From the NCBI GenBank assembly GCA_035463475.1, contig DATHTE010000123.1, positions 91,775-155,774 on the forward strand: a stretch of DNA of 64,000 nucleotides, in the 5' to 3' direction. The position numbers and the translations under genes were made by a program. The notes beneath the pieces were generated by a model. It was not told the origin of the DNA, made no database searches, and was given only the letters and a program-made list of their open reading frames with translations. Positions 17,724 through 34,670 of this stretch are shown piece after piece. Every line of letters starts with the position of its first letter. Position 1 is the stretch's first letter. The stretch comes from Vicinamibacterales bacterium. GTDB lineage: Bacteria > Acidobacteriota > Vicinamibacteria > Vicinamibacterales > 2-12-FULL-66-21.

Positions 17724-17744
17724 CCCGGGCGCACGCAGTCGTAG

Positions 17745-19312: not shown

Positions 19313-19576
19313 ATGATCGAGGAGAATCAGATTCGCGAGACGATACGTGAGAGCGTCCACCGCATCACCGGGATTGCGCCGGCCGAGATCCACGAGACCT
19401 CGAGCTACCGCGAGGATCTCGGGCTCGACTCTCTCTCGGCGCTCGAAGTGGTGATCGACCTGGAGTACGCATTCAAGATCAAGGTTCCGGAAGAGCGAAT
19501 CCAGACGATCAGGAACGTGCAGGATACGATCGACGTGGTGCAGGAATACCTTTCGGCACCCGCTCGGACGGCGTAG
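19313..19576 (+). CDS. Acyl carrier protein
   Basis: 87 aa with EDLGLDSLSALEVVIDLE, containing the DSL phosphopantetheine attachment motif. Confidence 0.9.
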   Translation: MIEENQIRETIRESVHRITGIAPAEIHETSSYREDLGLDSLSALEVVIDLEYAFKIKVPEERIQTIRNVQDTIDVVQEYLSAPARTA

Positions 19577-19913: not shown

Positions 19914-21599
19914 GTGCCGGCACGAGTAGCCGTCGTCGCGTACCGCGACGGCATCGCGGAGCCCATCCTGGACGCGCTGCGACGCTCCGCCGGTGTCGAG
20001 CTTTGCGAGCGCGTGCCGATCGATCCGCAGGGAATCGATGCGGTCGCGTTCAGCCGGTACAACACGATCGTGTACTCGGCGCTCCCTGCCGCGGGTCCCT
20101 CAACGGGACCGGACTTGGGGACTGCCCGCGCGGTGTGCCAGCGGCTCGCGTCGTTGCCTCTCCGGCACGTGGTCACCATCTCCAGTGCGGCAGTCTATTC
20201 GCCGAGCCACCAGAACCTCGGTCTGCTCGAGGAGCGCGCGTTCATCCCGTCGCGCAGGAGCGCGATCGCCGATGGGTGGCGCGACGTCGAACAGATGAGC
20301 GCCCTCATCAGCCAGCGTTCGGGCGCGGCGCCGCCGGTCCGCTCGATTCTCCGTCCGGCCGCGGTGCTCGACGGCGTCGATTACTTCAGCCGCCTGCTCG
20401 GCGGACGCGTGGCTGTGACCTATCCCGGTCACGACCCGACGATCCAGCTCCTCAGCCCGTGCGACCTGGCCGACGCGATCGCGGCGGTGATTGCCGCGGG
20501 TCGCGGCGGCACGTTCAACGTGGTGCCGACGGCCGGCGTGCCGTTGCGCGCGGCGCTTCGAATCGCCGGTGTAAAGCGGCTGCCGATCGGCAGGGTGGCC
20601 CAGAACGCCGTCAGGGCGATCACCTCGCAGGCGGGCCTGGCCGTCTCGGCGGACCAGCTGAAATACATCCAGTACTCGTGGACCGTGTCGGGGGAGAAGA
20701 TTAGGCGCGAGCTCGGGTTCGTCCCCTCCCGGTCGAGCGTCCAGGCGATCGTGGAATGCATCGGCCGCGGCACTCCGGCCGATGCGGCGAAGCAGTTCGA
20801 CGACTTCGGCATGGATCCGGATTACATCCGGCGCTACTGCGGCCACCTGTTCCGGTTTCTCCACGACTACTACTGGCGTGTCGAGATCGACGGAATCTCC
20901 GAGGTGCCGCGGAAGGGGCGCGGCGTGCTCGTTGGGATGCACCGCGGGTTCATGCCTTTCGACGGCGTGATGGCGCTGCACGCGCTCGTAACGCGGCGCG
21001 GCCGCATTCCGCGGTTCCTGATTCACCCCAGCCTGACCAAGTTCCCGTTCCTGGCGGACTTCATGGCCAAGCTCGGGGGCATCATGGCCTGCCAGGAGCA
21101 CGGCGACTACGTGCTGCAGCACGACGAGCTGCTCGGCGTGTTCCCCGAGGGCATCCGGGGAACATTCACGATGTACAAGCGGGCCTACATGCTCGGCAAG
21201 TTCGGTCGCGACGAGTTCGTGCGGATGGCGCTGAGGAACCGCGCCCCCATCCTGCCCTTCGTCACCGTCGGAAGCGCGGAGATCTACCCAATCCTGCGGC
21301 GCGTGGACTGGCGGTGGTTCAAGCGCTACACGGAATGGCCGTTCCTGCCGATCACGCCAGCGCCGTTCCCGCTGCCGTCGAAGTGGCACACGCGGTATCT
21401 GCCCGCCATGCACGTCGAGGAGCAGTATCCGCCGGAGGCGGCCGAGGACCCCGCGCTGGTGCATCGCATCAGCCTCGAGGTGCGGCAGCGGATGCAGGCG
21501 GCGATTGACGACATGCTGCTGCGCCGACGCTCGATCTTCTTCGGATCGATCTTCGAGCAGGCGCGCCCGCCGGAAGGCGAGGAGGCCGCGAGCATCTGA
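19914..21599 (+). CDS. Fusion protein: degenerate NAD-epimerase/SDR-like N-domain + lysophospholipid/glycerolipid acyltransferase (PlsC/LPLAT) C-domain
   Basis: GTG at 19914 with AAGGAG 10 nt upstream. The N-half resembles extended SDRs (VVTISSAAVYSP, TFNVVP), but the Gly-rich motif reads VAVVAYRDGIAEP. The C-half has GVLVGMHRGFMPFDG, GVFPEGIRGT (FPEGTR-type motif) and PILPFVTVGSAEIYP. Confidence 0.8.
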   Translation: MPARVAVVAYRDGIAEPILDALRRSAGVELCERVPIDPQGIDAVAFSRYNTIVYSALPAAGPSTGPDLGTARAVCQRLASLPLRHVVTISSAAVYSPSHQNLGLLEERAFIPSRRSAIADGWRDVEQMSALISQRSGAAPPVRSILRPAAVLDGVDYFSRLLGGRVAVTYPGHDPTIQLLSPCDLADAIAAVIAAGRGGTFNVVPTAGVPLRAALRIAGVKRLPIGRVAQNAVRAITSQAGLAVSADQLKYIQYSWTVSGEKIRRELGFVPSRSSVQAIVECIGRGTPADAAKQFDDFGMDPDYIRRYCGHLFRFLHDYYWRVEIDGISEVPRKGRGVLVGMHRGFMPFDGVMALHALVTRRGRIPRFLIHPSLTKFPFLADFMAKLGGIMACQEHGDYVLQHDELLGVFPEGIRGTFTMYKRAYMLGKFGRDEFVRMALRNRAPILPFVTVGSAEIYPILRRVDWRWFKRYTEWPFLPITPAPFPLPSKWHTRYLPAMHVEEQYPPEAAEDPALVHRISLEVRQRMQAAIDDMLLRRRSIFFGSIFEQARPPEGEEAASI

Positions 21600-21783: not shown

Positions 21784-22242
21784 GTGGAGATGCGCGAAGT
21801 GGCCAAGTCGATCCTCGGGCTCTCGTGGGCAGTGTCGCTGTTTGGCTTTCAGCAGCTGTCGAAGGCGATGACACCGGCGACGACCCAGCCGTGTGACGTG
21901 ACCGCGACGGAGGTCGATGAAGTGTCGCGCGCGGTGCAGAGTCGGCTCTCCGACTCCGCCGCGCAGCAGTTCCGCGCCGGCGACGAGTGGCAGCGCCGCA
22001 TGGTGGACATCATGTTCGACATGGCGTCGCTGCGGGCGGTCGAGCCGCGCAAGATGGTCGAGGTTCTCGACCCGCGGACGCTGATTGAGACTGCCGATCC
22101 GCGCGCGATGATCGAAACGAGCGTGACCGTGATCCAGAAGAGCATCGACACCGCCGTGAACGCCATGCGGCAGACCGCCGACACGGCCATGGACCTGACC
22201 AAGCGGGCCGTCGATTCGGTCAGGCCATCGGCGACAGCGTAG
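21784..22242 (+). CDS. Hypothetical protein (152 aa); stand-alone copy of the N-terminal module of the 24044 and 33420 proteins
   Basis: GTG at 21784 (AAAGG upstream). EVAKSILGLSWAVSLFGFQQLSKAMTP aligns with DLLKSTLTLPWAISMFGVQQLTNLVTP (24044 protein). ...WQRRMVDIMFDM aligns with ...MQRAMVDLMMF. Confidence 0.6.
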   Translation: MEMREVAKSILGLSWAVSLFGFQQLSKAMTPATTQPCDVTATEVDEVSRAVQSRLSDSAAQQFRAGDEWQRRMVDIMFDMASLRAVEPRKMVEVLDPRTLIETADPRAMIETSVTVIQKSIDTAVNAMRQTADTAMDLTKRAVDSVRPSATA

Positions 22243-22299
22243 TACGACCCTGCGGCGCCGCACGGCGCATGGTCGCACGGGGGGCCGTGCGGAGATCGG

Positions 22300-24021
22300 A
22301 TGGAGACTGCGGTTCACCACGGCGGCTACGTGACGCGGCACCGTGCCGCGCTGGCTGCCGCGCGGCCGATTCTGCGGCGGCTGCCCCACATCCTCCGGGT
22401 GGTGATCGCTCACGGGATCGCGAATGTCGTCGCGTCCCGCCCCCGCCTGCGATGGCTCGCGCGCTGGGCGCCGCTCGCCCGGCTCACCGGTCCGGAGCGC
22501 TTCCGGCGCCTGTTCGAGGACCTCGGCGGGAGCTTCGTCAAGTTCGGGCAGATGCTCGCGCTCCAGCCCGACATCGTCTCCCTCGAGTACTGCGACGAGC
22601 TGTTCAACCTACTCGATCGCATGGCGCCGTTCCCCTACGAGTTCGTCGAGCAGGTCTTCCGGGAGGAGCTGGGCCAGTCACCCTCCGACCTCTTCGATCA
22701 CTTCGATCCCGTGCCGCTGGCGACCGCGTCAATCGGGCAGGTTCATGCCGCGGTCCTGCACGGGCGCAAGGTCGCCGTGAAGGTGCAGCGCCCGGGCGTC
22801 GAGGCCGACTTCGACGGCGACCTCCGCCTGCTCGTGCTCGCCATGCGGTTCATCCGGCGCCTGCAGGTGAGGTCGCTCTACTGGGTGCTCGATCCCGGCG
22901 GTGAGTTCATCTCCTGGACGCGCGAGGAGCTCGACTACCGACGCGAGGCGCGGTACGCCGAGCGGCTGCGGCGCAACGCGGAGTTCAACCCCCAGGAGCG
23001 TGTGCCGGCCATCGTATGGGAGCTGACGACCCGCCGCACGCTGGTGATGGAGTTCATGTCGGGGATGACCGTCCTCGACTACCTGCGCGCCCTCACGACC
23101 GGCGACGAGTGGACGACGTACCGGCTGCGAGCCGACGGGTTCGACCCGAACCTCTTCGCGCGGCACATCATCGACAACTTTCTCGGCGATGCATTTCAGT
23201 ACGGCGTCTTTCATGCCGACCTGCATCCTGCGAACCTTCTCGTGCTGCCGCAGAACGTGGTCGGGTACGTGGACTTCGGCATCACCGGCGTGCTGAGCCG
23301 CTACTCGCGGCGCCACCTGGTCGAGATGACGCTCGCCTACACGCGCGCGGACGTCCGCGGCATGGCCGACGCGTACTTCAAGCTCGTGACGTATCGATCC
23401 GATGCCGACCCCGATCTGTTCCGGCGGCTGCTGGCCGAGACGTCGCAGGACTGGTATGAAGAGGGCGAGGCGGAGACGGTCTTCAGGAAGAACTTCACGC
23501 TGGTGATGCTGGACTTCCTGACGCTGTCGCGCAAGGCGGGTATCGGGCCCGAGCGGGATGTGGTTAAATACATCCGCTCGACCATCGCGGCAGACGGGCT
23601 CATCACGCGGTTTGCGCCCGGGTTCAGCGTGGGACGCCACCTCGAGGACGTCTGCCAGCAATGGATCGCTCGCGAAGCGCGCCGAGTCGCGTTCAGCTAC
23701 AACACGTTGACGGCCCTCGTCGCCTCCGGCGGCCGGCTGATCGAAGACGGGCCCGCGCGCGCCGCCTCCGTGCTGCGGCGGGTCGCCGAGGGCGAAGCCC
23801 TCGGTCGCGTCGACATCACGACAATCGCCCGGCGTGACGAACGCGTGCGCAAGCGCACGATTCGGCTCGCGGGAATCGCCGTGGCGTTCACGGCGTTGCT
23901 CGAGCTCACGGGCGCGGCGCCGGAGCTGGGGCTGAATCTCTTTACCGTCGAAGCGGCACTCGTGGCGGGTGCGTTGCTCCTGCTCGCAGACTCTCTGAGA
24001 GAACTTGCTTTTGCCGGCTGA
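22300..24021 (+). CDS. ABC1/UbiB-family atypical protein kinase (canonical motifs), two C-terminal TM helices
   Basis: GGSFVKFGQMLALQPDIV (KxGQ motif), ASIGQVHAAVL.GRKVAVKVQRPG (catalytic Lys), FHADLHPANLLV, and YVDFGITG (DFG). GGAG lies upstream of ATG 22300. Confidence 0.9.
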   Translation: METAVHHGGYVTRHRAALAAARPILRRLPHILRVVIAHGIANVVASRPRLRWLARWAPLARLTGPERFRRLFEDLGGSFVKFGQMLALQPDIVSLEYCDELFNLLDRMAPFPYEFVEQVFREELGQSPSDLFDHFDPVPLATASIGQVHAAVLHGRKVAVKVQRPGVEADFDGDLRLLVLAMRFIRRLQVRSLYWVLDPGGEFISWTREELDYRREARYAERLRRNAEFNPQERVPAIVWELTTRRTLVMEFMSGMTVLDYLRALTTGDEWTTYRLRADGFDPNLFARHIIDNFLGDAFQYGVFHADLHPANLLVLPQNVVGYVDFGITGVLSRYSRRHLVEMTLAYTRADVRGMADAYFKLVTYRSDADPDLFRRLLAETSQDWYEEGEAETVFRKNFTLVMLDFLTLSRKAGIGPERDVVKYIRSTIAADGLITRFAPGFSVGRHLEDVCQQWIAREARRVAFSYNTLTALVASGGRLIEDGPARAASVLRRVAEGEALGRVDITTIARRDERVRKRTIRLAGIAVAFTALLELTGAAPELGLNLFTVEAALVAGALLLLADSLRELAFAG

Positions 24022-24043
24022 CCCTCGGCAGAAAGGCCCGGTC

Positions 24044-25429
24044 ATGGAAACCACGACGCAATCATCGACGTTTCGCGACCTCCTGAAGTCGACGTTGACC
24101 CTGCCCTGGGCGATTTCGATGTTTGGCGTCCAGCAGCTCACCAACCTCGTGACGCCGCCGCCGGCCGGGCGCGTGGCGGGCGCGACCTCCGCGCTCGACA
24201 CCGTCAGCGACGTGACCGCGAAACAGCTCGACGGCTGGCTGAAACAGACCTACCAGCTCGGCACCGGCATGCAGCGTGCGATGGTGGACCTCATGATGTT
24301 CCGCACGCCCGACATCGATCAGAGTACGCTCATGCGCATCGCCGCCGAGATGCAGGATGGCCCACTGTTCGAGGCGGTCGTGAAGTACGGGCTCCCGCCG
24401 GTCGGCTGGCTCGACTCGTGGCTCGTGTCGCGGCGCGACGCGCCGGCCGTCACGCAGGAGTTCACGAACAAGCTCTACATCATCTCCCTCGTGACCCACG
24501 TGCATTCCGAGCTCGGGCTCAGCTCGAAGACCGTCGACCCGCTCGGCGTGCTGGTCGACAAGGTGGCGGAAATGCCGACGTTTCCCCGCGTGTGGGCCAC
24601 CGAAGGGCTTGGCAACTGGTTTGGCGATCTGGCGATGGAGCGGGCGGCCGACGGCCCGGATCCCACTGGTCTGCTCACCGACCCGCAATACGACTCGCTC
24701 CCGGCGTGGAGCATGACGATGCTGCACGCAGGCATCGGCATGTCGTTCGGCAAGGCGATCCTCAAGAAGCTCGAGCCGACGAGCTCGCCGGAAACCATCC
24801 GGGGAGAGCTGGCCCGCTTCCTGAGGTTGTGTCGTGAATCGTCGCGTCCGGGATACGCCGGCGCCGCGCTCGAGTCGCTTGGCCTCGCGACCCGGTCGCT
24901 GTATCCAAACCTGCTGCCGGTCCTCGACCGCGAGATGCCGTACGTCGATCCCGATCTGCAAAGCTACTACTGGCACGGCGCTGGCCGCGCGATGTACTTC
25001 GAGCCGGCGGGCTGGCTGCCCTCGGTCAACGCGCCGTGGCGCGTCATCAGGCGGCTCGACGCGGAGACGCCGCACGACCTCGGTCGCAAGAACATCCTCT
25101 CTGGCATCGGGTGGGCGCTCTCGGTCGTCAACATGCGTCATCCGGTGGTGATGGAGACGTTCCTGCGCCATCACGCGGCGCTGGCGAGGACCGAGGACGC
25201 GTTCACCAACGGCGTCGTCTCGTCGCTGATGATGCGGTTCGACACGACGCGCGACGACGCGCACATCTCCCCCTACATTCGCTACGAACCGTCTGATCCG
25301 GAGGTCGCGTCGGCGTGGCGGACGCTGATTACCGAGCCGTGCGAGCACGCCCTGCGCGACACGTACGGCAACCTGCTGCGGACCAACTCGCTCGAGCAGC
25401 TGTTCCACTACCGCCCGGCGGGAAGCTAG
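24044..25429 (+). CDS. Hypothetical protein: shared N-module + DUF1702-like (enediyne UnbL-type) C-terminal domain
   Basis: ATG at 24044. The C-domain has MLHAGIGMSFG, GYAGAALESLGLA, SYYWHGAGRAMYF and GIGWALSVVN. This is the periodic HxGxG / aromatic-EGxG pattern I associate with DUF1702. It is paralogous to the 33420 protein. Confidence 0.65.
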   Translation: METTTQSSTFRDLLKSTLTLPWAISMFGVQQLTNLVTPPPAGRVAGATSALDTVSDVTAKQLDGWLKQTYQLGTGMQRAMVDLMMFRTPDIDQSTLMRIAAEMQDGPLFEAVVKYGLPPVGWLDSWLVSRRDAPAVTQEFTNKLYIISLVTHVHSELGLSSKTVDPLGVLVDKVAEMPTFPRVWATEGLGNWFGDLAMERAADGPDPTGLLTDPQYDSLPAWSMTMLHAGIGMSFGKAILKKLEPTSSPETIRGELARFLRLCRESSRPGYAGAALESLGLATRSLYPNLLPVLDREMPYVDPDLQSYYWHGAGRAMYFEPAGWLPSVNAPWRVIRRLDAETPHDLGRKNILSGIGWALSVVNMRHPVVMETFLRHHAALARTEDAFTNGVVSSLMMRFDTTRDDAHISPYIRYEPSDPEVASAWRTLITEPCEHALRDTYGNLLRTNSLEQLFHYRPAGS

Positions 25430-25445
25430 AGCCGGCCGCGGAGCG

Positions 25446-27029
25446 ATGGCCACGTCACTGGTAGCGCGCAGCCCCGCGTCCGGCCGCGACGGCCGGCGGA
25501 AGCAGGTCGAGACGGTACTCAACGCGCTCGGTCTCCCCGTTCCCGAGCGCCGCTCGCCGCCACCCGAGGGGCGCCTCGGGGCGGACGAGGACTACGGGCG
25601 CCGGCTGCGCGAGGCGCTCACCGATCTCGGCCCGGTCTTCGCCGGCTTCGGCCGGTACCTCGGGTCGCGCGCCGATCTGGCGCCGCGGCGCACGCGCGCC
25701 GAACTGGCGACGATCCCGGACGAGGGGCAGGCGCTGCCGTTCGCCTCGGTCGCGGCACTGGTGCGCGCGCAGCTCGGGGCGCGGCCCGAGCGGCTGTTCT
25801 TCGAGTTCCATCGGGATCCCGTCGCGGTCGGCTCGTGGACGCAGTCGCATCTGGCGTGGCTCGCCCCAGGGGTGCCGGCGCTGGTGACCATCGTCCGTCC
25901 CGATGCCGCCGACGAGCTCGATATCGACATCCCGCTGCTGCCTCTTCTCGCGCCGTGGATCGACGTGCCTGCCGGCCTTCTTGCCGCCGCGGTCGCGGAC
26001 TACGAGTTGACGGTGCGGCGACGCCTGGATCAGAAGCACCAGGCTGCCTCGCTGACCAGTCTCGCGGCCGACGCCCGCAGCGGCGGAGGATTCGACGCGC
26101 CTGCCTGCTACCGCGATCACTGCGCGCCGAACGTCCTGACGGTCGAGCGGCTCGTCGGAGAGCCCCTCGACGCGCAGCCGCGTGGGGCTGAGGCGCTGGC
26201 GCGCCGGGTAACGGCCGCCTGGCTGCGACAGGCCTTCGCCGGCAACGTGGTGCCCTATGACTTCGGGCCGCGCGACCTCGTCGTGATCGACGAGCGCCTT
26301 GTGCTCACGGGGGGCGCTCTCGAGCCCCACTCGTCGGTCGAACGTGCGCGCTTCGCGGCGTACCTGAGCGCCGTCGCCTCCGACGATCCCGACGCGGCCG
26401 CCAACTGGATTGTCGAGGGGGCCAGTCCATCTCCCGCCGTCGAGTCGAGGCTTCGGCGCCTGTTGCGGCAGGCGGTCCCGTTCCGCGAAGGCGAGTGGAG
26501 CGGCGATGATCGCCTCGTGCAGCACGTGCTCGTGCAGTGGCGTGTCGCGCGCAACGCGGGGTGGCCCGTCTCACCCCATCATCTCCACCTGTACCGCGGC
26601 CTCCAGGCGGTGGCGCAGATTGCGCATGACCTCGCGCCTGACGTGGACACGCTGCTCCGGGCGCTCGAGGACGAACGCCTGCGAATCGGCCTGTCGCAGG
26701 CGGGCGAGTTGCTCAGCCCGCGCTACGCCGTGGCGACCCTCGACCGCGCGATCCAGGAACTCGCCGATCTTCCACAGAAGTTCGATGACGTGCTGACGAT
26801 GGCGTCCCAGGGGCGATTGCGGATGAACCTGCAGGTACCCGAGGCGGAAGAGAACGAGCGCGTCCGCAACCGCACCGTGCTGCTCGTGACCACGCTGGTC
26901 GCCTTCGCGGCGGTCGCCACCATCGCGCGCCACCTTGCGCCCGCATTCGGCGTCGGCATCGAGCGCGCCGGCGCGATCATCCTGCTGCTGGTGGGCGGGT
27001 GGCTGCTGTTCGCCGCGTCCCGGTTGTGA
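25446..27029 (+). CDS. ABC1/UbiB-like pseudokinase (catalytic motifs degenerate), two C-terminal TM helices
   Basis: LGPVFAGFGRYLGSRADLAP replaces the KxGQ motif. ALVTIVRPD replaces VAVKVQRPG. PYDFGPRDLVV replaces HADLHPANLLV. No DFG is present. It has the same length and architecture as the 45925..47505 paralog. Confidence 0.75.
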   Translation: MATSLVARSPASGRDGRRKQVETVLNALGLPVPERRSPPPEGRLGADEDYGRRLREALTDLGPVFAGFGRYLGSRADLAPRRTRAELATIPDEGQALPFASVAALVRAQLGARPERLFFEFHRDPVAVGSWTQSHLAWLAPGVPALVTIVRPDAADELDIDIPLLPLLAPWIDVPAGLLAAAVADYELTVRRRLDQKHQAASLTSLAADARSGGGFDAPACYRDHCAPNVLTVERLVGEPLDAQPRGAEALARRVTAAWLRQAFAGNVVPYDFGPRDLVVIDERLVLTGGALEPHSSVERARFAAYLSAVASDDPDAAANWIVEGASPSPAVESRLRRLLRQAVPFREGEWSGDDRLVQHVLVQWRVARNAGWPVSPHHLHLYRGLQAVAQIAHDLAPDVDTLLRALEDERLRIGLSQAGELLSPRYAVATLDRAIQELADLPQKFDDVLTMASQGRLRMNLQVPEAEENERVRNRTVLLVTTLVAFAAVATIARHLAPAFGVGIERAGAIILLLVGGWLLFAASRL

Positions 27030-27031
27030 TC

Positions 27032-29515
27032 ATGATGCCCGGCGGGCCGCAGGCAGCCAGATCCGCGTACTTGTCGCTCGCGACGGGGGGCGGTGGAGAG
27101 TCGTCGCCCATTCTCTTCGCATCCAATCCGGTGGGGGACGCGCTGCTGGCGACCGGCATGATGGCGGTGGCCGGCGCGGCGACGATGGTCCCCGTCCTGC
27201 CCGTCCGCATTTCCGGGATCGCGGTCCGCGAGACGCTGCACCGCCTCGGCACCGAGGCGCTTCCGCCGACCCCGGAGCGCGGCGTGACCGCCGCCAACCG
27301 GCTGGGCGAAGCGCTCGGCACAATCGCGATGCGCTGGCTGGTCGCTCCCGAGGGGTTCGAGGCCACGCCGTCGGTGCCTCCACCCCACACCGAGCTGGAT
27401 TCGTCGCGGTCGCAGCGGTTCGTGATGCAGGACGGCGCCCTGCGCTTCCAGGACCGCACGCAGAGCGGCCTGCGCTTCTTCGGCGCCGGACGTACCTATC
27501 CCTCGAAGGGGAACGGAAACGGCCACCTCCTGTTCGCCGGCGCCGCGGTGGTCGTCGAGGGCCTCGGCCGGTTGAGGGGACTACGCGGCAGTCTCAGCGT
27601 CGCCGGCGAGATCTCCGGGCGATCGCTGGTGTCCCTGGTCGTCACGGGTCGCTTCGACGACGACGGGCCGCTCGAGATGGTCGAGCGGGTCGGCCTCATG
27701 ATCGACAGCGCGCCGGGCTGTCCGAACGCGACGGTGCTGGTGCTGGCGGGTGAGTCGAACGGCGGCTCGGCGATGGGCCAGATCGAGGAGCGCCTCCGCA
27801 TGGCGCGCATCGAAAACGACCTGGCGAACGCCACACAGCCACGCAGCGCCTTCCATGCCGGCGAGAACGTTGGGAGCGCGACCGGACCGTTGCGGTTCGA
27901 TCCGTCCGACCGCCGCTGCGCGATTCGCCTGATCGACGGCCGGCGCGAACTGACGTTCGGCGACGCCGCGGGGCAGCCGGTCGCGACGATCGTCGCAGAT
28001 GCCCTCGAGGGCACCACCTTTCGAGATCAGCACGCGGGCGAGCACGTGTCGCGCGTGATCGCGTACGGCCAGTTATCGGAGGGCACCGGCGCGCTGGCGG
28101 GCGCGGGGGGAATCCTGGCCATCGACACGGCGGTCTCGATCGACGCATCTGCCTCCAGCGTGTATACGCTGTGGCTGATCGACGAGCGAGGCCGGTTTCG
28201 CGCGCCGGCACCGGCGCCCGCCGCTGCGATCTCGCGCGCGAGCACGGCGCCCGGGCCGGCAGAGGAGCTCCAGTTCGTCGAGACGAGCGCCGCGTCGATC
28301 CTGCCCGCCGACGTCGCGATTCTCGCCCATGCCCAGCGGACGCTCGCGGACGGGGGCGATCTGAACCAGTGGCTCCAGGAGAAGAGTCGATCCGCCGACT
28401 ACCGAGAGCGGTTCGACGTCGTTCGGGAGCACACCTCCGACGACGACAGCTTCGGCTTCTTCGACGTGGCGCCGGTCGGCGGCACCCAGATGCCGGTGAT
28501 GGGCATCGTCCAGGAGATGTTCTACGACCGTCAGAAGCTGGGAAGCCCGGAGCCGATACGCGAGCAGCTCGCGGAGTTCGTCCTGCGCTATTTCATGCGT
28601 GTGTGTCACGCGGGCGAACCCGAAGCCGTCCCGGCCAGGCCCGGGGCGCCCGACACGGCGCTGCAGCGCGCCATGAGCTGGCTGCCCGGAGAGGCGCAGC
28701 GCAGCGCCGGAGCGGGGTACCAGCAGCTGTATTACGGGCTCGCCGAGTCGGGACAGACCGGGAAGTTCACGCACGACGAGCGTCCGGCGATCGTCGACCT
28801 GCGGGAGATCGGATCGAAGTACGAGTGGATCCTGCTCAAGGGAGACACGCTCTCCTTCGATCTTCCGTTCGTGCCGTTCGGGGCGGAGGTCACCACGCCG
28901 CAGGCGCCGGCAAAGCAATCCACGTATCTGCTGATGGCGCCCGCCTTCGTGGTCAACGCCCACGACCCTGAGCCGGGTGTGCTCGGCCACTACGGCTTCG
29001 GTTACGCGTTCGTGCCGTACGCCTCCGGCGGCCCGGGCCTGCTCGCCTACGGCCCCGGCCGGTTCCGCGCGGCGGTCCAGGCGGTGAGCTTCAAGCTGAT
29101 GGCGAACGGCGAGATCCGCGCCCGCACGATGTTCGTGGTCGCCCGGCCGGATAAAATCGCGGCGGTCGACGTGGATCCAATCGGGTGGAGCGTGCAGCTG
29201 GCGGACCTCGTGACGTTCCGGATGGCGTCGCGGCTCATGGGGCCCGTGCTCGCGATGGCCGACCGCCTTCCGCTGCACGCCCGGGATTTCGATCCGGTTG
29301 CGGCCTACATCTGGATGGCCAATACAATGACCGCCGGCATGGCCGAGAACTACCTCGGCATTTCGAAGGCCGCGCTCGAGAAGCGTATGCTGTTCCAGCA
29401 CCTGCGGTCGCACCAGGAGATGTTGCATCGATCACTGCGGATCTGGCGCATGGTGCCGGACTGGACCGCGCACGCGAAACTGCCGGACTTCTGCCATCGG
29501 GGCATGGGATGTTGA
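27032..29515 (+). CDS. Large hypothetical protein (827 aa); the C-terminal roughly 330 aa are homologous to the 52265..53284 protein
   Basis: ATG at 27032, 2 nt after the upstream stop. High GC3 throughout. C-terminal REIGSKYEWILL, GFGYAFVPYA and YGPGRFRAAVQAVSFKLMANGEIRARTMFVVARPDKI align with REIGTKYQWSLL, AIGYPFIDYA and FGPGKFDWAVKTYSFLLRDNNEVRCDMEFVAGARAKKV. Confidence 0.7.
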   Translation: MMPGGPQAARSAYLSLATGGGGESSPILFASNPVGDALLATGMMAVAGAATMVPVLPVRISGIAVRETLHRLGTEALPPTPERGVTAANRLGEALGTIAMRWLVAPEGFEATPSVPPPHTELDSSRSQRFVMQDGALRFQDRTQSGLRFFGAGRTYPSKGNGNGHLLFAGAAVVVEGLGRLRGLRGSLSVAGEISGRSLVSLVVTGRFDDDGPLEMVERVGLMIDSAPGCPNATVLVLAGESNGGSAMGQIEERLRMARIENDLANATQPRSAFHAGENVGSATGPLRFDPSDRRCAIRLIDGRRELTFGDAAGQPVATIVADALEGTTFRDQHAGEHVSRVIAYGQLSEGTGALAGAGGILAIDTAVSIDASASSVYTLWLIDERGRFRAPAPAPAAAISRASTAPGPAEELQFVETSAASILPADVAILAHAQRTLADGGDLNQWLQEKSRSADYRERFDVVREHTSDDDSFGFFDVAPVGGTQMPVMGIVQEMFYDRQKLGSPEPIREQLAEFVLRYFMRVCHAGEPEAVPARPGAPDTALQRAMSWLPGEAQRSAGAGYQQLYYGLAESGQTGKFTHDERPAIVDLREIGSKYEWILLKGDTLSFDLPFVPFGAEVTTPQAPAKQSTYLLMAPAFVVNAHDPEPGVLGHYGFGYAFVPYASGGPGLLAYGPGRFRAAVQAVSFKLMANGEIRARTMFVVARPDKIAAVDVDPIGWSVQLADLVTFRMASRLMGPVLAMADRLPLHARDFDPVAAYIWMANTMTAGMAENYLGISKAALEKRMLFQHLRSHQEMLHRSLRIWRMVPDWTAHAKLPDFCHRGMGC

Positions 29516-31308
29516 CGAGCAAGCCGTACGACGTGGACGTGGTGATCGTGGGCGCGGGGCTTGCTGGCCTCTCGCTCGCGCGCCAGCTGCTGATGGCCGA
29601 CGACGCCGTCACGATTCTTCAACTCGACAAGCGGCAGCAGGTTCCGCCCACCGGACAGAAGGTGGGCGAGGCCACGGTCCAGGTGAGCGGCTACTACTGG
29701 TCGAAAGTGCTCGATCTGGAGGAGCACCTGCTCCGCGAGCACTACATGAAGTACAACCTGCGATTCATCTGGAAGACCGCCGGACTCGATCCCTCGCGGA
29801 TCGAGAGCTACAGCCAGTCGTACATCCGGCGCATCTCCAACGTCGCGAGCTACCAGCTGAATCGCAACAAGCTCGAGGCGGAGCTGCTGCGGCGCAATCT
29901 CGAAGCCGCCGATCGGTACGAGTTCCACAATCACGCGCTGGAGCTGAAGATCGATCTCGATCGTGACGGCGGCCCGCACCGGGTGTCGTACATCCGCGAA
30001 GGTGAGCGGCGTTCCCTCACCGCGCGGTGGGTGGTGGACTGCGCGGGACGCGCCCACGTGCTGCAGAAGCAGCTCGGGCTCCAGAAGTCGAACAGCATCC
30101 GCCACGGCGCGTCGTTCCTGTGGGTGGACGGCCTGCTCAACTACGAGGCCCTGACCGATTCGACACCCCGTCAGATCCGGCTGAACCCGCAGCGCGCGTA
30201 CACCGGCCACCTGCCCTTCTGGCTGGCGACGAACCACTTTCTCGAGGAAGGGCTGTGGTTCTGGGTGATTCCGCTGCAGGGCATCACGAGCCTGGGCCTC
30301 GTCTACGACCGGCGCGTCATTGCTCCCGAGGTGGTGAACCACCCGAAGCGCCTGGTGGAGTGGATCTGCGAGCACTTCCCGGCGTTCGAACGGGACCTGC
30401 CTCGCCGGAAGATCCTCCACGCGGCCAGCTATCGCGACATCTCGTTCGACGCGGTGCAGACGATCGATCGCCATCGCTGGGCGATGGCGGGCGAGGCGGG
30501 GCGCTGGTCGGACCCGCTGTACAGCCCCGGCGGCGACGTGATAGCCATCTACAACACGCTGGTGTGCGATTCGATCCTGACACGCGACCAGGCCGAGCTC
30601 GACGCGAAGGTGCCGCTGTACGAGGAACTGGAGCGCGCCGTCTACGCGGCCTATCTGCCCAGCTTCCAGATCGGCTACGACTGCCTCGGAGACCAGGAAG
30701 CGCACTCGCTGAAGTACGTCTGGGAGCTGACCATCTACTTCGCGTTCTACGTCTTCCCGTTCATCAACGATCTCTTCACCGATCGGCGGTTCCTGGCGGC
30801 GTACCTGCGGACGTTCACGAGGCTGGGCCGTGTGAACCTCGCGGTGCAGGGCTTGCTGAACCGCTACTATCACTGGAAGAAGGAGAACCGCGAGCCGGTC
30901 ACGTCGCCGATCTTCTTCGAGCTCTTTGACGTGCCGGGGATCGCGGTTGCCGAAGGGACGTTTTACAGGGTGGGCGTGTCGGTCGAAGAAGCGCGGCCGA
31001 TCCTGGAGGACCAGCTGGCCAACGCGATGATGCTCGCGCGCTACCTTGCCGCGCACGTGTATGCGATGGTGCTCGACGAGCCTGCGCTGGTGTGGAACCG
31101 ATCGTTCGTTTCGAGCCTCGACCTCGAAACGCTCTCCTTTGATCCGGTCAGGATGGCCGCCGACTACGCGCCGCACGCCGGCTGCGGCGAGAGGTACGCC
31201 TGGCCGGCCGGCTGGGACCCTGAGGTCGCGTTCTGCTTCAAGACGCCGCGGCGCGTCCCGGTTGTGGCTCTCGCGAGCTCGGCCACCGCGGTCTCGGAGG
31301 GGTTGTGA
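29509..31308 (+). CDS. Flavin-dependent halogenase-like FAD enzyme (tryptophan-halogenase family)
   Basis: ATG at 29509 within ATGTTGA, overlapping the upstream stop. VVIVGAGLAGLSLA (GxGxxG), TGQKVGEATV (K-x-GE[AS] with candidate catalytic Lys), EEGLWFWVIPLQG (WxWxIP), GRWSDPLYSPGGD (DPxxSxG). Confidence 0.75.
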   Translation: MLTSKPYDVDVVIVGAGLAGLSLARQLLMADDAVTILQLDKRQQVPPTGQKVGEATVQVSGYYWSKVLDLEEHLLREHYMKYNLRFIWKTAGLDPSRIESYSQSYIRRISNVASYQLNRNKLEAELLRRNLEAADRYEFHNHALELKIDLDRDGGPHRVSYIREGERRSLTARWVVDCAGRAHVLQKQLGLQKSNSIRHGASFLWVDGLLNYEALTDSTPRQIRLNPQRAYTGHLPFWLATNHFLEEGLWFWVIPLQGITSLGLVYDRRVIAPEVVNHPKRLVEWICEHFPAFERDLPRRKILHAASYRDISFDAVQTIDRHRWAMAGEAGRWSDPLYSPGGDVIAIYNTLVCDSILTRDQAELDAKVPLYEELERAVYAAYLPSFQIGYDCLGDQEAHSLKYVWELTIYFAFYVFPFINDLFTDRRFLAAYLRTFTRLGRVNLAVQGLLNRYYHWKKENREPVTSPIFFELFDVPGIAVAEGTFYRVGVSVEEARPILEDQLANAMMLARYLAAHVYAMVLDEPALVWNRSFVSSLDLETLSFDPVRMAADYAPHAGCGERYAWPAGWDPEVAFCFKTPRRVPVVALASSATAVSEGL

Positions 31309-32738: not shown

Positions 32739-33385
32739 ACGTGGAGGGGAGCCGACGTCACGGTGCCGCCTTCGACCGCCTGGCTGACCTCGCGGCGGTC
32801 CGGACGGCGACGATTGCGAAGGTCACGCCGCTGTCGCAGGCGCAGCTGGATTTCTCTCCGCGCCCGGGCCGATGGTCGATTGGCGAGATTGCCGATCACC
32901 TGCGGCTGTCCGAGCTGCTCTGGCGCGGCGAGATCAGCCGTCTCGTCGATCTGGCGCGCGAGGGCAAGCCCACGTACCTCAAGCGCTCTTTCGCGGACAT
33001 CAACGTGTCGCCGGCGCTGGTCCCCGACGCGGTCCTCTCGATGCTGGAGGTGCCGCTCGGGATCATGTCCCGGTTCATGCCCGACGCCATCGTCGGCATG
33101 ATGACCGAGCTGCCAATCCTGCCGATGCGCAACCCGGACGCGGCCACGCCGCGGGCCCGGCGTCCCGCCGCCGAGCTGATCGCTGAGCTGAACGCCGCGA
33201 TCGCTCAGACCGAACGGCTGATCGAGGCCAATGCCGGCCTCGACTTCGATCGGATGATCTCCGCGCATCCGCTGATGGGGTCCAACAATGTTCCGCAGAT
33301 GCTGACGATTGTCGCGCGGCACGAGCGGCGCCACCACGTGCAGATGGATCGCGTTCGAGCGGATTCGGGTTTCCCCCGCCTGTAG
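32735..33385 (+). CDS. DinB-fold (DinB_2) metal-dependent protein
   Basis: GTG at 32735 (GTGA overlap). RWSIGEIADHLRLSE (His 1), then HPLMG...MLTIVARHERRHHVQM (C-terminal His cluster), in a four-helix-bundle-sized protein. Confidence 0.8.
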   Translation: MNVEGSRRHGAAFDRLADLAAVRTATIAKVTPLSQAQLDFSPRPGRWSIGEIADHLRLSELLWRGEISRLVDLAREGKPTYLKRSFADINVSPALVPDAVLSMLEVPLGIMSRFMPDAIVGMMTELPILPMRNPDAATPRARRPAAELIAELNAAIAQTERLIEANAGLDFDRMISAHPLMGSNNVPQMLTIVARHERRHHVQMDRVRADSGFPRL

Positions 33386-33419: not shown

Positions 33420-34670
33420 ATGACAGTGACCCAGGCTACCGAACGGACCAATCCCCTCACGGACATGATGCACACCACCGGCGACCTGATGAAATCGGTC
33501 GGCCGGTTCTCCCTCGCCATGTCGCTGCTCGCGGCGCGTCAGGCCATGGCGATCGTGTCGCGCCCGAAAGCGGCGTCCGGCGAGCTCGACGACGTGACGC
33601 GGGCCGCGGGCGGTCACCTGTCGGGCGCCGTCCGCACCGCGTTCGCGATTGGCGCGAACGTGCAGAGCGGCCTCGTCGACGCCGCGTTCGACGCCGTCGG
33701 CATGCGCCCGAAGGGGCAGCAGCCGTCGGGCGACACGACCGCGCTCTCGGTGCCGATGACGACCGGCGTGCCGCGTCGCGTCGCCGGCGTGCGGACGGTC
33801 GCGTCGGGCGCCGTGGATCGCGGGGTGCCGCAGTCCGAGCTCGTGCAGCGGCTGACCGAGTACCAGACGGAGTCGACCGGCCGCCCGGTGGAGCGCGCCA
33901 AGGCGGTCACCGGCCTGTGGAAGTCGGAAGGGCTGTCCACGTCGGTCGGCAAGCACCTTCTTCCCGAGAACTCGCTGGCAGACCCGAACTTCCCGCGCGA
34001 GGTCGTGCCGATCGCGCACGTGGGGTTCGGCTCCGGATCGACCGAGGATCTGGTGTTCGACGTCGCGAAGCTGAACGGGCTGTTCGCGGCGCGCTGCGCC
34101 CCCGCGTACATCGGTTTCGCGTACGAAGGGATCGGCGCCATCCTGCGCATCTATGAGCGCGGCTTCTTCAAGCTGATGAGCGGCGCGCTCGGTCTCATTC
34201 GCCTCGACGCGCCCGACGGGCCGAACGCGGAGGGGCTGTTCGCCGACTATCTCAGTCAGTACCCTGAAGACCGGCAGTGGCTGATCGTTCACGGGTACGG
34301 TCGCCTCGTCGCCTTCAGCAACATGAACATCTACAAGGCGATCGAAGAGATCACGACGTATCCCGCCGATCGCGTGGACCCCGCCGTGCGCGGCGCCGCG
34401 TTTGCGTTCGCCATGATGAACAGCGCCGACCTGCCCAGGGTCCTCGACGAGAGCGCCATTCCGTTCGACCGATCCATCCGCGTGTCGTTCCAGAACGGCC
34501 TGGTGAACAGTGTGGTGTTCTTCGACTGGTTCCTGCCGGGACTGCTCGAAGACTGGCGGCCGCAGGGCGCGCTCGAAGGGGAATTGATCGATCACGCGCG
34601 CCTCGAGGCGGCCGCCGCGCGCGAACGCGGGTATCCGCTCGCGATGCAGCTCGAACACCCGCGCACGTAG
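33420..34670 (+). CDS. Hypothetical protein: shared N-module + DUF1702-like domain (second paralog)
   Basis: ATG at 33420 with GGAG upstream. N-terminal GDLMKSVGRFSLAMSLLAARQAM...VQSGLVDAAFD. C-domain IAHVGFGSG, GFAYEGIGAILRIYE, WLIVHGYGRLVAF, GAAFAFAMMN. Confidence 0.65.
   Translation: MTVTQATERTNPLTDMMHTTGDLMKSVGRFSLAMSLLAARQAMAIVSRPKAASGELDDVTRAAGGHLSGAVRTAFAIGANVQSGLVDAAFDAVGMRPKGQQPSGDTTALSVPMTTGVPRRVAGVRTVASGAVDRGVPQSELVQRLTEYQTESTGRPVERAKAVTGLWKSEGLSTSVGKHLLPENSLADPNFPREVVPIAHVGFGSGSTEDLVFDVAKLNGLFAARCAPAYIGFAYEGIGAILRIYERGFFKLMSGALGLIRLDAPDGPNAEGLFADYLSQYPEDRQWLIVHGYGRLVAFSNMNIYKAIEEITTYPADRVDPAVRGAAFAFAMMNSADLPRVLDESAIPFDRSIRVSFQNGLVNSVVFFDWFLPGLLEDWRPQGALEGELIDHARLEAAAARERGYPLAMQLEHPRT

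What the first reader, a model, noticed from the sequence alone, without database searches (positions are those of the whole stretch)
29509..31308. Flavin-dependent halogenase signature (GxGxxG, K-x-GEA, WxWxIP) in a lipid-associated operon
VVIVGAGLAGLS, TGQKVGEATV, GLWFWVIPLQG and SDPLYSPGGD reproduce the motif set used to separate flavin-dependent halogenases from monooxygenases. No carrier protein or tryptophan-pathway gene is adjacent. The neighbours are a CCD-type dioxygenase and the unknown 827-aa protein. A halogenated lipid, polyene or apocarotenoid (compare the brominated aryl-polyene xanthomonadins) is conceivable.
Basis: partly seen in the sequence, partly recalled or inferred. Interest (0 to 1): 0.62.

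Follow-up and report, generated by a model that had tools for sequence, protein, structure and literature searches.

The report
Halogenase-like enzyme paired with alkene-cleaving oxygenase
The gene is a real but unusual relative of chlorinating or brominating flavin enzymes; in soil Acidobacteria it almost always travels with a double-bond-cleaving oxygenase, often beside carrier-protein lipid-building genes, so it probably marks an undescribed pathway to modified, perhaps halogenated, lipids.

Summary
Window 29509-31308 (+) is an intact 599-aa ORF carrying all four quoted peptides. Sequence profiles and an AlphaFold model both place it among flavin-dependent halogenases (FDHs). The 45 best structural matches in the PDB are FDHs (CtcP, PltM, PltA, ChlB4, CmlS, Bmp2, CndH) or one uncharacterised flavoprotein (3nix).

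Two points need correcting. The catalytic-lysine candidate is K81 (MKYNLRF), not the Lys of KVGEA. A carrier protein is present: an ACP gene at 19313, with a KS/CLF pair at 14042-16485, lies in the same gene array. In relatives, ACP-KS-CLF directly abuts the FDH gene.

The FDH and the downstream ACO-like cleavage dioxygenase form a tight pair. They overlap by 4 nt (GTGA). They are adjacent in 69 of 74 species-level loci. Their orthologues occur in exactly the same 8 of 301 phylum genomes.

There are caveats. The protein belongs to a large uncharacterised clade with the signature FxDPxYSPG. Its invariant Pro sits where RebH uses a backbone NH to bind halide. No member has been assayed. No RebF-type flavin reductase is encoded in the genome.

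Verdict: a true FDH-family member. Halogenation of an ACP- or lipid-bound unsaturated intermediate is likely but unproven. It is a new variant of a known kind.

The parts
29509..31308 (+). Flavin-dependent-halogenase-family protein, 599 aa (P0001): an FAD domain of about 350 aa plus a helical C-terminal domain of about 250 aa
29551..29568 (+). GxGxxG FAD-binding motif (G15, G17, G20)
   Evidence: invariant in 37 orthologues; 114-116 of 118 in the superfamily
29749..29751 (+). K81, candidate catalytic lysine (MKYNLRF)
   Evidence: aligns with the Lys of CndH 'IKRGGTF' and CtcP 'QKSNFGF'; invariant; 117/118 in superfamily representatives
30256..30273 (+). WxWxIP motif (W250-F-W252-V-I254-P255)
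   Evidence: invariant
30511..30531 (+). D335-P-L-Y338-S339-P340-G341, equivalent to the FDH 'FxDPxFSSG / EPLESTG' tunnel and halide-site block; Pro340 lies at the position of RebH T359
   Evidence: halide site in RebH from PMC5945002
31305..32738 (+). ACO-like carotenoid-cleavage-family dioxygenase (477 aa), translationally coupled to the FDH; four iron-binding His conserved
   Evidence: Pfam RPE65 3e-99; Synechocystis ACO 1.5e-47 with the His motifs aligned
27032..29515 (+). 827-aa protein with no recognisable family, stop overlapping the FDH start; present in 16 of 80 related loci
32741..33385 (+). DinB_2-fold protein, found in the same locus as the pair in 26 of 80 related loci, usually downstream
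33426..34670 (+). 414-aa unknown protein, last gene of the array
19313..19576 (+). Acyl carrier protein (PP-binding)
   Evidence: orthologue directly upstream of KS-CLF-FDH in L034, L038 and others
14042..16485 (+). Ketosynthase plus a CLF-like second ketosynthase
   Evidence: co-located with FDH-CCD in 16 of 80 loci
16485..19247 (+). HMG-CoA-reductase-fold protein and CrtI/amine-oxidase-like flavoprotein
   Evidence: HMGR-like gene directly upstream of the FDH in G176
19914..21599 (+). 561-aa acyltransferase (PlsC/LPLAT-type C-terminal domain)
21784..27029 (+). 152-aa helical protein, ABC1/UbiB kinase, 461-aa unknown protein and a second, divergent ABC1-like protein

Best explanation
The ORF encodes a two-component (FADH2-using) enzyme of the flavin-dependent halogenase family. 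It belongs to a large, uncharacterised, Acidobacteriota-centred clade with the signature K-x-(G/N)-L-R-F ... WxWxIP ... FxDPxYSPGxD.

Shown: the FDH fold; conserved FAD, Lys and WxWxIP elements; obligate genomic partnership with an ACO-like alkene-cleaving dioxygenase; and recurrent embedding in an ACP/KS/CLF (plus or minus HMGR-like reductase, CrtI-like desaturase, acyltransferase) lipid or polyketide-type operon.

Inferred: reduced flavin from a housekeeping reductase reacts with O2 and halide to give hypohalous acid. This is passed through the tunnel to Lys81. It then halogenates an electron-rich sp2 carbon (polyene, enol or enolate, or phenol-like) of an ACP-tethered or lipid intermediate made by the neighbouring KS/CLF system. 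This matches the carrier-dependent 'variant B' FDHs and CmlS, its nearest relatives. The coupled dioxygenase then cleaves a conjugated C=C of the same molecule, before or after halogenation. The halogen may be retained or cryptic.
For: FDH membership: Pfam Trp_halogenase scores above its cut-off. With the family profile against PDB, 19 of the 21 hits are FDHs, led by ChlB4, CtcP, CndH, PltA, Bmp2, Mpy16, CmlS, PltM and MalA, against one monooxygenase and one uncharacterised flavoprotein, 3nix. The AF2 model has pLDDT 85.7 and pTM 0.86. Foldseek ranks 1-45 are FDHs or 3nix, and the first monooxygenase appears at 4e-15 against 3e-22. Relatives at 30-35% identity hit the NCBIfam CmlS model best, at 1e-19 to 1e-28.

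Catalytic elements: K81, W250, W252, I254, P255, G15/17/20 and D335-P-x-Y-S-P-G are invariant in 37 orthologues. They are at least 90% conserved in 117 superfamily representatives. K81 aligns with the lysine of CndH and CtcP. Loss of this Lys abolishes activity in RebH, PrnA and Rdc2 (PMC8407142).

Partnership: there is a 4-nt GTGA overlap with the CCD gene. The CCD lies directly downstream in 69 of 74 loci with enough flank. Orthologues of the two genes occur in exactly the same 8 of 301 phylum genomes from 6 families, which by chance would be about 1 in 1e15.

Pathway context: ACP-KS-CLF-(HMGR)-FDH-CCD is contiguous in G176 and G266. KS/CLF/ACP/HMGR/CrtI/AT genes lie within 10 kb in 29 of 61 loci.

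Precedent: a halogenase gene sits in KS-CLF aryl-polyene (xanthomonadin) clusters (PMC3691225 and PMC3949708). CmlS is proposed to halogenate an acyl enolate.
Against: No member of this clade has been assayed. Pro340 is invariant and occupies the position whose backbone NH, together with that of the following Gly, binds halide in RebH (T359/G360; PMC5945002). Proline has no NH. The residue equivalent to PrnA E346 is Tyr, which falls outside the published FX[DE]PX[EFL] motif. The best NCBIfam hit of this protein alone is the geranylgeranyl-reductase superfamily (2.9e-9), ahead of CmlS (1.3e-6), and all hits are far below their cut-offs. The genome (99.7% complete) has no PF01613 RebF/PrnF-type flavin reductase, although FMN_red and Fre-like genes exist elsewhere. 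The model is weak (pLDDT below 50) at residues 71-80, just before K81, and I could not measure the Lys-flavin distance. The substrate is unknown.
Confidence: 0.55

Rival explanations
1. An FDH-derived flavoenzyme that no longer halogenates. It would use the flavin C4a-(hydro)peroxide, or reduced flavin, to hydroxylate, epoxidise or otherwise oxidise the unsaturated lipid that the partner dioxygenase cleaves.
For: An invariant Pro lies at one of the two halide-coordinating backbone positions, and Tyr replaces E/F/L in the neighbouring motif. The N-terminal half matches many monooxygenase models equally well. Relatives also hit the non-halogenating LodB/GoxB/QhpG models at 1e-9 to 1e-16. There is no dedicated flavin reductase. 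No characterised member exists.
Against: WxWxIP, proposed to keep substrate away from the flavin and so prevent monooxygenation (PMC5945002 and PMC8407142), is 100% conserved. The Lys, which only the halogenation mechanism needs, is 117/118 conserved. All the closest solved relatives that have a known activity are halogenases.
Confidence: 0.28
2. A geranylgeranyl-reductase-like or CrtY-like flavoenzyme that reduces or cyclises a polyene or isoprenoid chain.
For: The best NCBIfam hit is TIGR02032 GG-red-SF (37 bits, residues 10-337), and Pfam Lycopene_cycl matches at 4.9e-7. The neighbours include a CrtI-like desaturase and a carotenoid-oxygenase homologue.
Against: The score is far below the family cut-off (37 against 158.8). 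No GGR or lycopene cyclase structure appears among the PDB sequence hits at E<0.01 or in the Foldseek top 50. The motif is the halogenase WxWxIP with TS(L/V)G, not the GGR YxWxFP (the latter from my knowledge). The Lycopene_cycl match covers only the Rossmann part (10-193).
Confidence: 0.07
3. A tryptophan or free-aromatic 'variant A' halogenase of secondary metabolism, unrelated to the lipid genes.
For: The Pfam family name is Trp_halogenase, and some database entries are auto-named 'tryptophan 7-halogenase'.
Against: The Trp-FDH Glu (PrnA E346) is Tyr here. The nearest solved relatives are pyrrole, phenol or carrier-dependent FDHs, with Trp halogenases only at E of about 0.07. There are no Trp-pathway or NRPS genes nearby. 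The linkage to the CCD and to KS/CLF/ACP is strict.
Confidence: 0.03

Closest known systems
Carrier-protein-dependent and related pyrrole or phenol flavin-dependent halogenases (ChlB4, CndH, PltA, Bmp2, Mpy16; also CtcP, PltM, CmlS)
   Same: Same fold. GxGxxG, WxWxIP, a Lys in a K-x-G/N-x-x-F strand and an F-x-D-P-x-x-S-x-G block. A helical C-terminal domain as in CtcP, PltM and CmlS. Encoded with an ACP and ketosynthases.
   Different: Only 14-19% identity in structural alignments. 'YSPG' replaces 'FSSG' or 'FSRG', with Pro at a halide-site position. 'KYNLRF' replaces 'KxGxxF'. It is paired with a carotenoid-cleavage-family dioxygenase, which no described FDH pathway has. Substrate and activity are unknown.
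Halogenase genes of xanthomonadin / arcuflavin aryl-polyene clusters (type II KS-CLF polyene PKS)
   Same: An FDH-type gene embedded with a KS-CLF pair, ACP and a lipid acyltransferase. The product is a halogenated (brominated) polyene esterified to a lipid (PMC3691225, PMC3949708).
   Different: No chorismatase/XanB2, aryl-AMP ligase, KR/DH set or LolA-type export genes were seen here. The CCD, UbiB kinases, HMGR-like reductase and CrtI-like genes are absent from aryl-polyene clusters. Sequence relationship to the Xanthomonas halogenase was not tested.
CmlS (chloramphenicol dichloroacetyl formation)
   Same: The best named NCBIfam model for the superfamily. CmlS is proposed to halogenate an acyl-thioester enolate, not an arene (PMC8407142), which would fit a beta-ketoacyl-ACP made by KS/CLF.
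   Different: Scores are far below the equivalog cut-off (27-97 bits against 900). The covalent-FAD Asp of CmlS was not examined. The C-terminal domain is different.
Synechocystis apocarotenoid-15,15'-oxygenase (ACO), for the partner gene
   Same: The partner protein aligns end to end (E=1.5e-47) with all four iron-binding His conserved.
   Different: About 30% identity. No carotenoid biosynthesis genes are in the conserved module, so the substrate is probably a non-isoprenoid conjugated alkene.

Membership tests
Flavin-dependent halogenases (FDH) | N-terminal GxGxxG FAD-binding motif | tested here: met
   G15-A-G17-L-A-G20; invariant in 37 orthologues
Flavin-dependent halogenases (FDH) | WxWxIP motif | tested here: met
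   W250-F-W-V-I-P255; W250 and W252 are 118/118 in superfamily representatives
Flavin-dependent halogenases (FDH) | Catalytic lysine about 80 residues from the N-terminus (PrnA/RebH K79, BrvH K83) | tested here: met
   K81 aligns with the Lys of CndH and CtcP in HMMER alignments; 117/118 conserved. Its spatial position over the tunnel was not measurable, because no coordinates were available.
Flavin-dependent halogenases (FDH) | Fx.Px.Sx.G / FX[DE]PX[EFL] tunnel motif | tested here: inconclusive
   The family consensus F-T-D-P-L-Y-S-P-G keeps F, D, P, S and G (this protein has W for F). The [EFL] position is an invariant Tyr.
Flavin-dependent halogenases (FDH) | Halide site formed by two consecutive backbone NH groups (RebH T359/G360) | tested here: inconclusive
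   The equivalent residues are P340 and G341. Pro lacks the NH. Pro is present in 106/118 superfamily representatives.
Flavin-dependent halogenases (FDH) | Overall fold closest to solved FDHs, not to flavin monooxygenases | tested here: met
   Foldseek ranks 1-45 are FDHs or 3nix, at E 3e-22 to 6e-16; KMO appears first at rank 46
Flavin-dependent halogenases (FDH) | Halide-, O2- and FADH2-dependent C-X bond formation | not testable with these tools
   Needs biochemistry
Flavin-dependent halogenases (FDH) | Source of free reduced flavin (partner reductase) | tested here: inconclusive
   No PF01613 gene in the genome. Two FMN_red genes and one Fre-like gene lie elsewhere. None is in the cluster.
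Tryptophan halogenase subfamily (PrnA/RebH type) | Conserved Glu (PrnA E346 / RebH E357) in the EPLESTG block | tested here: not met
   Tyr338 occupies this position
Variant B (carrier-protein-dependent) FDHs | Substrate presented on a phosphopantetheinyl carrier protein | not testable with these tools
   Indirect evidence only: an ACP is encoded in the array and directly beside KS-CLF-FDH in relatives
Geranylgeranyl reductase family (TIGR02032) | Score above the family cut-off; similarity to solved GGRs | tested here: not met
   37 bits against a cut-off of 158.8. No GGR among the PDB sequence hits or in the Foldseek top 50.

The most novel reading that the evidence does not exclude
The FDH-CCD pair is the signature of an undescribed and widespread pathway. 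At least 335 species-level genomes carry a relative of the FDH; these are mostly uncultured soil Acidobacteriota, with scattered Poribacteria, Latescibacterota, Zixibacteria and Planctomycetota-labelled MAGs. In this pathway an ACP-bound unsaturated acyl or polyene chain, built by an anammox-like KS/CLF pair, would be halogenated and then oxidatively cleaved. The halogenation could be cryptic, with the halogen acting as a leaving group. The products would be halogenated lipids or aldehydes, making this a biological source of soil organohalogens from one of the most abundant soil phyla. The 'YSPG' clade would then be a new functional class of FDHs acting on aliphatic or alkenyl lipid substrates, with an altered halide site.
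Probability: 0.3. Interest if true: 0.8.

Novelty: new variant of a known kind. Interest (0 to 1): 0.6.

Why it matters
Flavin-dependent halogenases are known almost entirely from antibiotic-type secondary metabolism acting on aromatic rings. Here a distinct clade is locked to an alkene-cleaving oxygenase and repeatedly embedded in carrier-protein lipid-building operons. It occurs across several classes of Acidobacteriota, a dominant and poorly cultured soil phylum.

If it halogenates, it points to unknown halogenated or cryptically halogenated lipids and to a microbial contribution to natural organochlorine formation in soil. It would also provide FDHs with non-aromatic substrates and an unusual halide site for biocatalysis. 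If it does not halogenate, it shows that the standard motif rule (GxGxxG + Lys + WxWxIP) over-predicts halogenases in metagenomes. Either way, the minimal five-gene cassette ACP-KS-CLF-FDH-CCD makes the question directly testable.

Tried and rejected
- Lys assignment. It aligns with Gln of CndH and lies in the GxGE(A/S) flavin-loop motif.
- Lys geometry. I tried to obtain model coordinates to measure the K81-flavin geometry, but none are exposed to the Python box.
- Halide-site Pro. A PDB search with the 40-aa segment around DPLYSPG, to find solved FDHs with Pro at the halide site, gave only a spurious hit.
- Labelled phylogeny with PrnA, RebH, PltA and CmlS. Reference sequences could not be fetched, and I did not type them from memory. 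I used PDB sequence and fold rankings and NCBIfam scores instead.
- DUF1702 link. A superfamily member (P0229) is fused to DUF1702. The window's 461-aa and 414-aa proteins show no Pfam hit at E<=5 and no significant BLASTP match to that domain.
- The 827-aa neighbour has no Pfam or PDB sequence match.
- Literature searches found no description of this module. The queries were FDH + Acidobacteria, halogenase + carotenoid cleavage + gene cluster, diiodotetrayne/enediyne, and DUF1702.
- The geranylgeranyl-reductase, lycopene-cyclase and tryptophan-halogenase readings were considered and rejected on structural, score and motif grounds.

Full report
**1. Observation**

Window 29509-31308 (+) is an uninterrupted ORF of 599 codons. 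It has the high third-position G+C of the surrounding genes.

The start ATG overlaps the TGA of the upstream 827-aa gene by 7 nt. The stop TGA overlaps the GTG start of the downstream gene by 4 nt, as GTGA. The three genes are therefore translationally coupled.

The downstream gene is an RPE65/carotenoid-oxygenase family protein (Pfam 3e-99). The upstream 827-aa protein has no Pfam or PDB match.

**2. Is it a halogenase-family protein?**

Yes, on four independent lines of evidence.

- **Pfam.** Trp_halogenase scores 37.3 bits against a cut-off of 21.
- **PDB sequence search.** With the single sequence, the best hits are CtcP (5e-10), ChlB4 and CndH. With a profile of 37 orthologues (alignment A1, 54-86% identity), 19 of the 21 hits are FDHs: ChlB4 7.7e-14, CtcP, CndH, PltA, FasV, Bmp2, Mpy16, CmlS, PltM, MalA, LooH and RadH. 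The other two are one uncharacterised flavoprotein (3nix) and a single monooxygenase that matches only the Rossmann half.
- **Structure.** An AlphaFold2 model built on A1 is confident (mean pLDDT 85.7, pTM 0.86). Foldseek against the PDB gives FDHs or 3nix at ranks 1-45 (3e-22 to 6e-16). The first ordinary monooxygenase, kynurenine 3-monooxygenase, appears at rank 46. No geranylgeranyl reductase appears, although this protein's best NCBIfam hit is the GGR superfamily model at a score far below its cut-off.
- **Relatives.** Proteins at 30-35% identity hit the NCBIfam CmlS halogenase model best, at 1e-19 to 1e-28. This bridges the family to characterised halogenases.

That criterion is not met.

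**3. Catalytic residues**

In the HMMER alignments K51 pairs with Gln of CndH. It lies in the GxGE(A/S) flavin-loop motif.

The residue that aligns with the lysine of CndH ('IKRGGTF') and CtcP ('QKSNFGF') is K81, in 'MKYNLRF'. Its numbering is close to PrnA/RebH K79 and BrvH K83.

Conservation is as follows:
- K81, G15/G17/G20, W250, W252, I254, P255 and D335-P-L-Y-S-P-G341 are invariant in the 37 orthologues.
- In 117 full-length representatives of the wider superfamily (about 30-50% identity), K81 is conserved in 117 of the 118 aligned sequences (these representatives plus the query). Both Trp residues are conserved in 118/118.

Mutating this lysine abolishes activity in RebH, PrnA and Rdc2. 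WxWxIP is thought to prevent monooxygenation (PMC8407142 and PMC5945002).

**4. What deviates**

The block equivalent to 'EPLESTG' (Trp-FDHs) or 'DPxFSSG' (pyrrole and phenol FDHs) is 'DPLYSPG' here.

In RebH the halide is held by the backbone amide nitrogens of T359 and G360 (PMC5945002). By positional equivalence these are P340 and G341, and proline has no amide hydrogen. P340 is invariant in the orthologues and present in 106/118 superfamily representatives.

The Tyr at the PrnA-E346 position falls outside the published FX[DE]PX[EFL] motif. It also excludes the tryptophan-halogenase subfamily.

The genome is 99.7% complete and has no PF01613 (RebF/PrnF/HpaC-type) flavin reductase, whereas 13 of 14 control genomes have one. 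It does have two FMN_red genes and one Fre-like gene elsewhere. Free FADH2 supply is therefore plausible but not dedicated to this enzyme.

The model is poorly defined at residues 71-80, just before K81. I could not access coordinates to measure distances.

These points keep real halogenation at 'likely' and short of 'shown'.

**5. Context in the window**

In fact the FDH gene is the twelfth gene of a same-strand array. The array runs:

- KS (14042)
- CLF-like KS (15250)
- HMG-CoA-reductase-fold protein (16485)
- CrtI-like flavoprotein (17745)
- ACP (19313)
- acyltransferase (19914)
- 152-aa helical protein (21784)
- ABC1/UbiB kinase (22300)
- 461-aa unknown protein (24044)
- divergent ABC1-like protein (25446)
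- 827-aa unknown protein (27032)
- FDH (29509)
- CCD (31305)
- DinB (32741)
- 414-aa unknown protein (33426)

The CCD is most similar to Synechocystis apocarotenoid oxygenase (1.5e-47). All four iron-ligand His motifs are aligned.

**6. Comparative evidence**

*Family size and taxonomy.* The protein family is large. The word-indexed search gave more than 1,800 hits, named Vicinamibacterales, Pyrinomonadaceae or Acidobacteria where named at all. There are 1,466 clusters at 50% identity with E<=1e-3 and 319 with E<=1e-30.

*Co-occurrence with the CCD.* In an even sample of 301 genomes of the phylum, true orthologues (46-54% identity) occur in 8 genomes from 6 families. Orthologues of the CCD (E<=1e-108) occur in exactly those same 8 genomes. 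Chance overlap would be about 1/C(301,8), roughly 1e-15, although shared ancestry weakens that figure. This holds even where the two genes are far apart on the chromosome (G033, G100, G180). The CLF-like KS is present in 7 of the 8 and in 6 genomes without the pair.

*Species-level scan.* A scan of 185,579 species genomes found 335 loci encoding relatives. The best 80 are all MAGs. They come from Vicinamibacterales, Pyrinomonadaceae, Thermoanaerobaculia, Holophagales and Blastocatellia. A few are labelled Poribacteria, Latescibacterota, Zixibacteria, Planctomycetota families, Multivoradales or Deltaproteobacteria.

*Adjacency.* The CCD lies directly downstream on the same strand in 69 of the 74 loci with at least 1.5 kb of downstream sequence. 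The median gap between alignments is 78 nt. At least one of KS/CLF/ACP/HMGR-like/CrtI-like/acyltransferase lies within 10 kb in 29 of 61 loci with enough upstream sequence.

*Compact arrangements.* ACP-KS-CLF-HMGR-FDH-CCD occurs in G176 and ACP-KS-CLF-FDH-CCD in G266. Both are contiguous, and at least five further loci show the second arrangement.

*Paralogues.* Paralogues at 25-30% identity lack an adjacent CCD. Several still sit next to KS, ABC1 or the acyltransferase orthologue.

*Domain fusions in the superfamily.* These point to lipid or natural-product tailoring: FDH::SCP2 lipid-transfer domain, FDH::O-methyltransferase, DUF3050::FDH and FDH::DUF1702.

**7. Mechanism proposed**

*Shown:*
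- an FDH-fold flavoprotein with the conserved Lys and WxWxIP;
- an obligate partnership with an alkene-cleaving non-haem-iron dioxygenase;
- frequent co-location with an ACP/KS/CLF system.

*Inferred:*
- FADH2 from a general reductase, with O2 and halide, gives HOX.
- HOX is delivered via K81 to an electron-rich sp2 carbon of an ACP-tethered or lipid-bound intermediate. This could be a polyene built with housekeeping KR/DH, a beta-ketoacyl enolate as proposed for CmlS, or an enol or aryl group.
- The CCD cleaves a conjugated double bond of the same molecule.
- The order of the two steps, and whether the halogen is retained or cryptic, is unknown.

Precedent for a halogenase inside a KS-CLF polyene pathway exists in xanthomonadin and arcuflavin clusters. 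Those clusters have aromatic-starter, KR/DH and export genes that I did not see here, and they have no CCD.

I put about 0.9 on FDH-family membership. I put about 0.55 on the full statement, which includes actual halogenation of a product of the neighbouring pathway.

**8. Rivals**

- **An FDH-derived enzyme that has lost halogenation and acts as an oxygenase (0.28).** The Pro340 and Tyr338 deviations and the lack of any characterised member support it. The near-absolute conservation of the Lys and WxWxIP argues against it.
- **A GGR- or lycopene-cyclase-like reductase or cyclase (0.07).** Only sub-threshold HMM hits support it, and the structure searches contradict it.
- **A tryptophan or free-arene halogenase unrelated to the lipid genes (0.03).** The missing Glu, the poor similarity to Trp halogenases and the strict linkage to the CCD contradict it.

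**9. Novelty**

Searches of the held literature found no description of an FDH-CCD module or of this clade. The queries covered FDH + Acidobacteria, halogenase + carotenoid cleavage + gene cluster, and DUF1702.

Earlier notes of this scan on other genomes independently describe the same pair and the same KS/CLF association. I treated them as leads and reproduced the key claims here with my own searches.

The enzyme is a new, divergent clade of a known family, sitting in an undescribed two-enzyme module. I rate this 'new variant of a known kind' with interest 0.6.

Noticed in passing
proteins P0229, P0154, P0174, P0227 (superfamily representatives): Relatives at 30-34% identity occur as fusions: FDH-like::DUF1702 (the enediyne UnbL-type domain), DUF3050::FDH-like, FDH-like::SCP2 lipid-transfer domain and FDH-like::O-methyltransferase. 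The DUF1702 fusion is a possible Rosetta-stone link between this halogenase clade and a domain of unknown function from polyene/enediyne cassettes.
   Followed up: partly
They give no Pfam hit even at E<=5 and no significant BLASTP match to the DUF1702 domain of P0229. Only faint periodic G-x-G-[RW] patterns line up.
   Followed up: partly
whole genome G000: The 99.7%-complete genome has no PF01613 Flavin_Reduct gene, although 13 of 14 control genomes have one. Two FMN_red genes (C108:31055, C86:5830) and one Fre-like gene (C85:6127) exist.
   Followed up: yes
window 21784-22242: The 152-aa helical protein has a weak Phasin_2 match (E=0.0011). Together with two ABC1/UbiB kinases, an acyltransferase and a CCD, the gene set resembles the plant plastoglobule (lipid-droplet) proteome of ABC1K kinases, CCD4 and acyltransferases. 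That comparison is from my knowledge and was not tested.
   Followed up: no
L020 (G215:C223:1-3872): In a genome that has the CLF-like KS (49% identity) but lacks both the FDH orthologue and the CCD, an orthologue of the 561-aa acyltransferase (53% identity) is directly followed by a 25%-identity FDH-like paralogue. The lipid operon may therefore recruit different members of the superfamily.
   Followed up: no
L006, L007, L009 (family f37 orthologues): The 'GDAA/GEAG' FAD-ribityl motif before FxDP reads G-M-A-G in these three orthologues, against G-E-A-G in this window. CtcP also lacks the Asp there.
   Followed up: no
loci L041-L120: All 80 best species-level loci are metagenome-assembled genomes. 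No cultured isolate appears, and a few carry non-acidobacterial labels (Poribacteria, Latescibacterota, Zixibacteria, Gemmataceae, Pirellulaceae, Clostridia) that may reflect transfer or mis-binning.
   Followed up: no
L093 (Zixibacteria MAG) and L069, L072, L083, L116: These are the exceptions to FDH-CCD adjacency. In L093 the CCD is on the opposite strand. In the other four no CCD lies within the available downstream flank (about 4 kb in L072, 10 kb in the others). In L116 the FDH is followed by the HMGR-like and CrtI-like genes instead.
   Followed up: no
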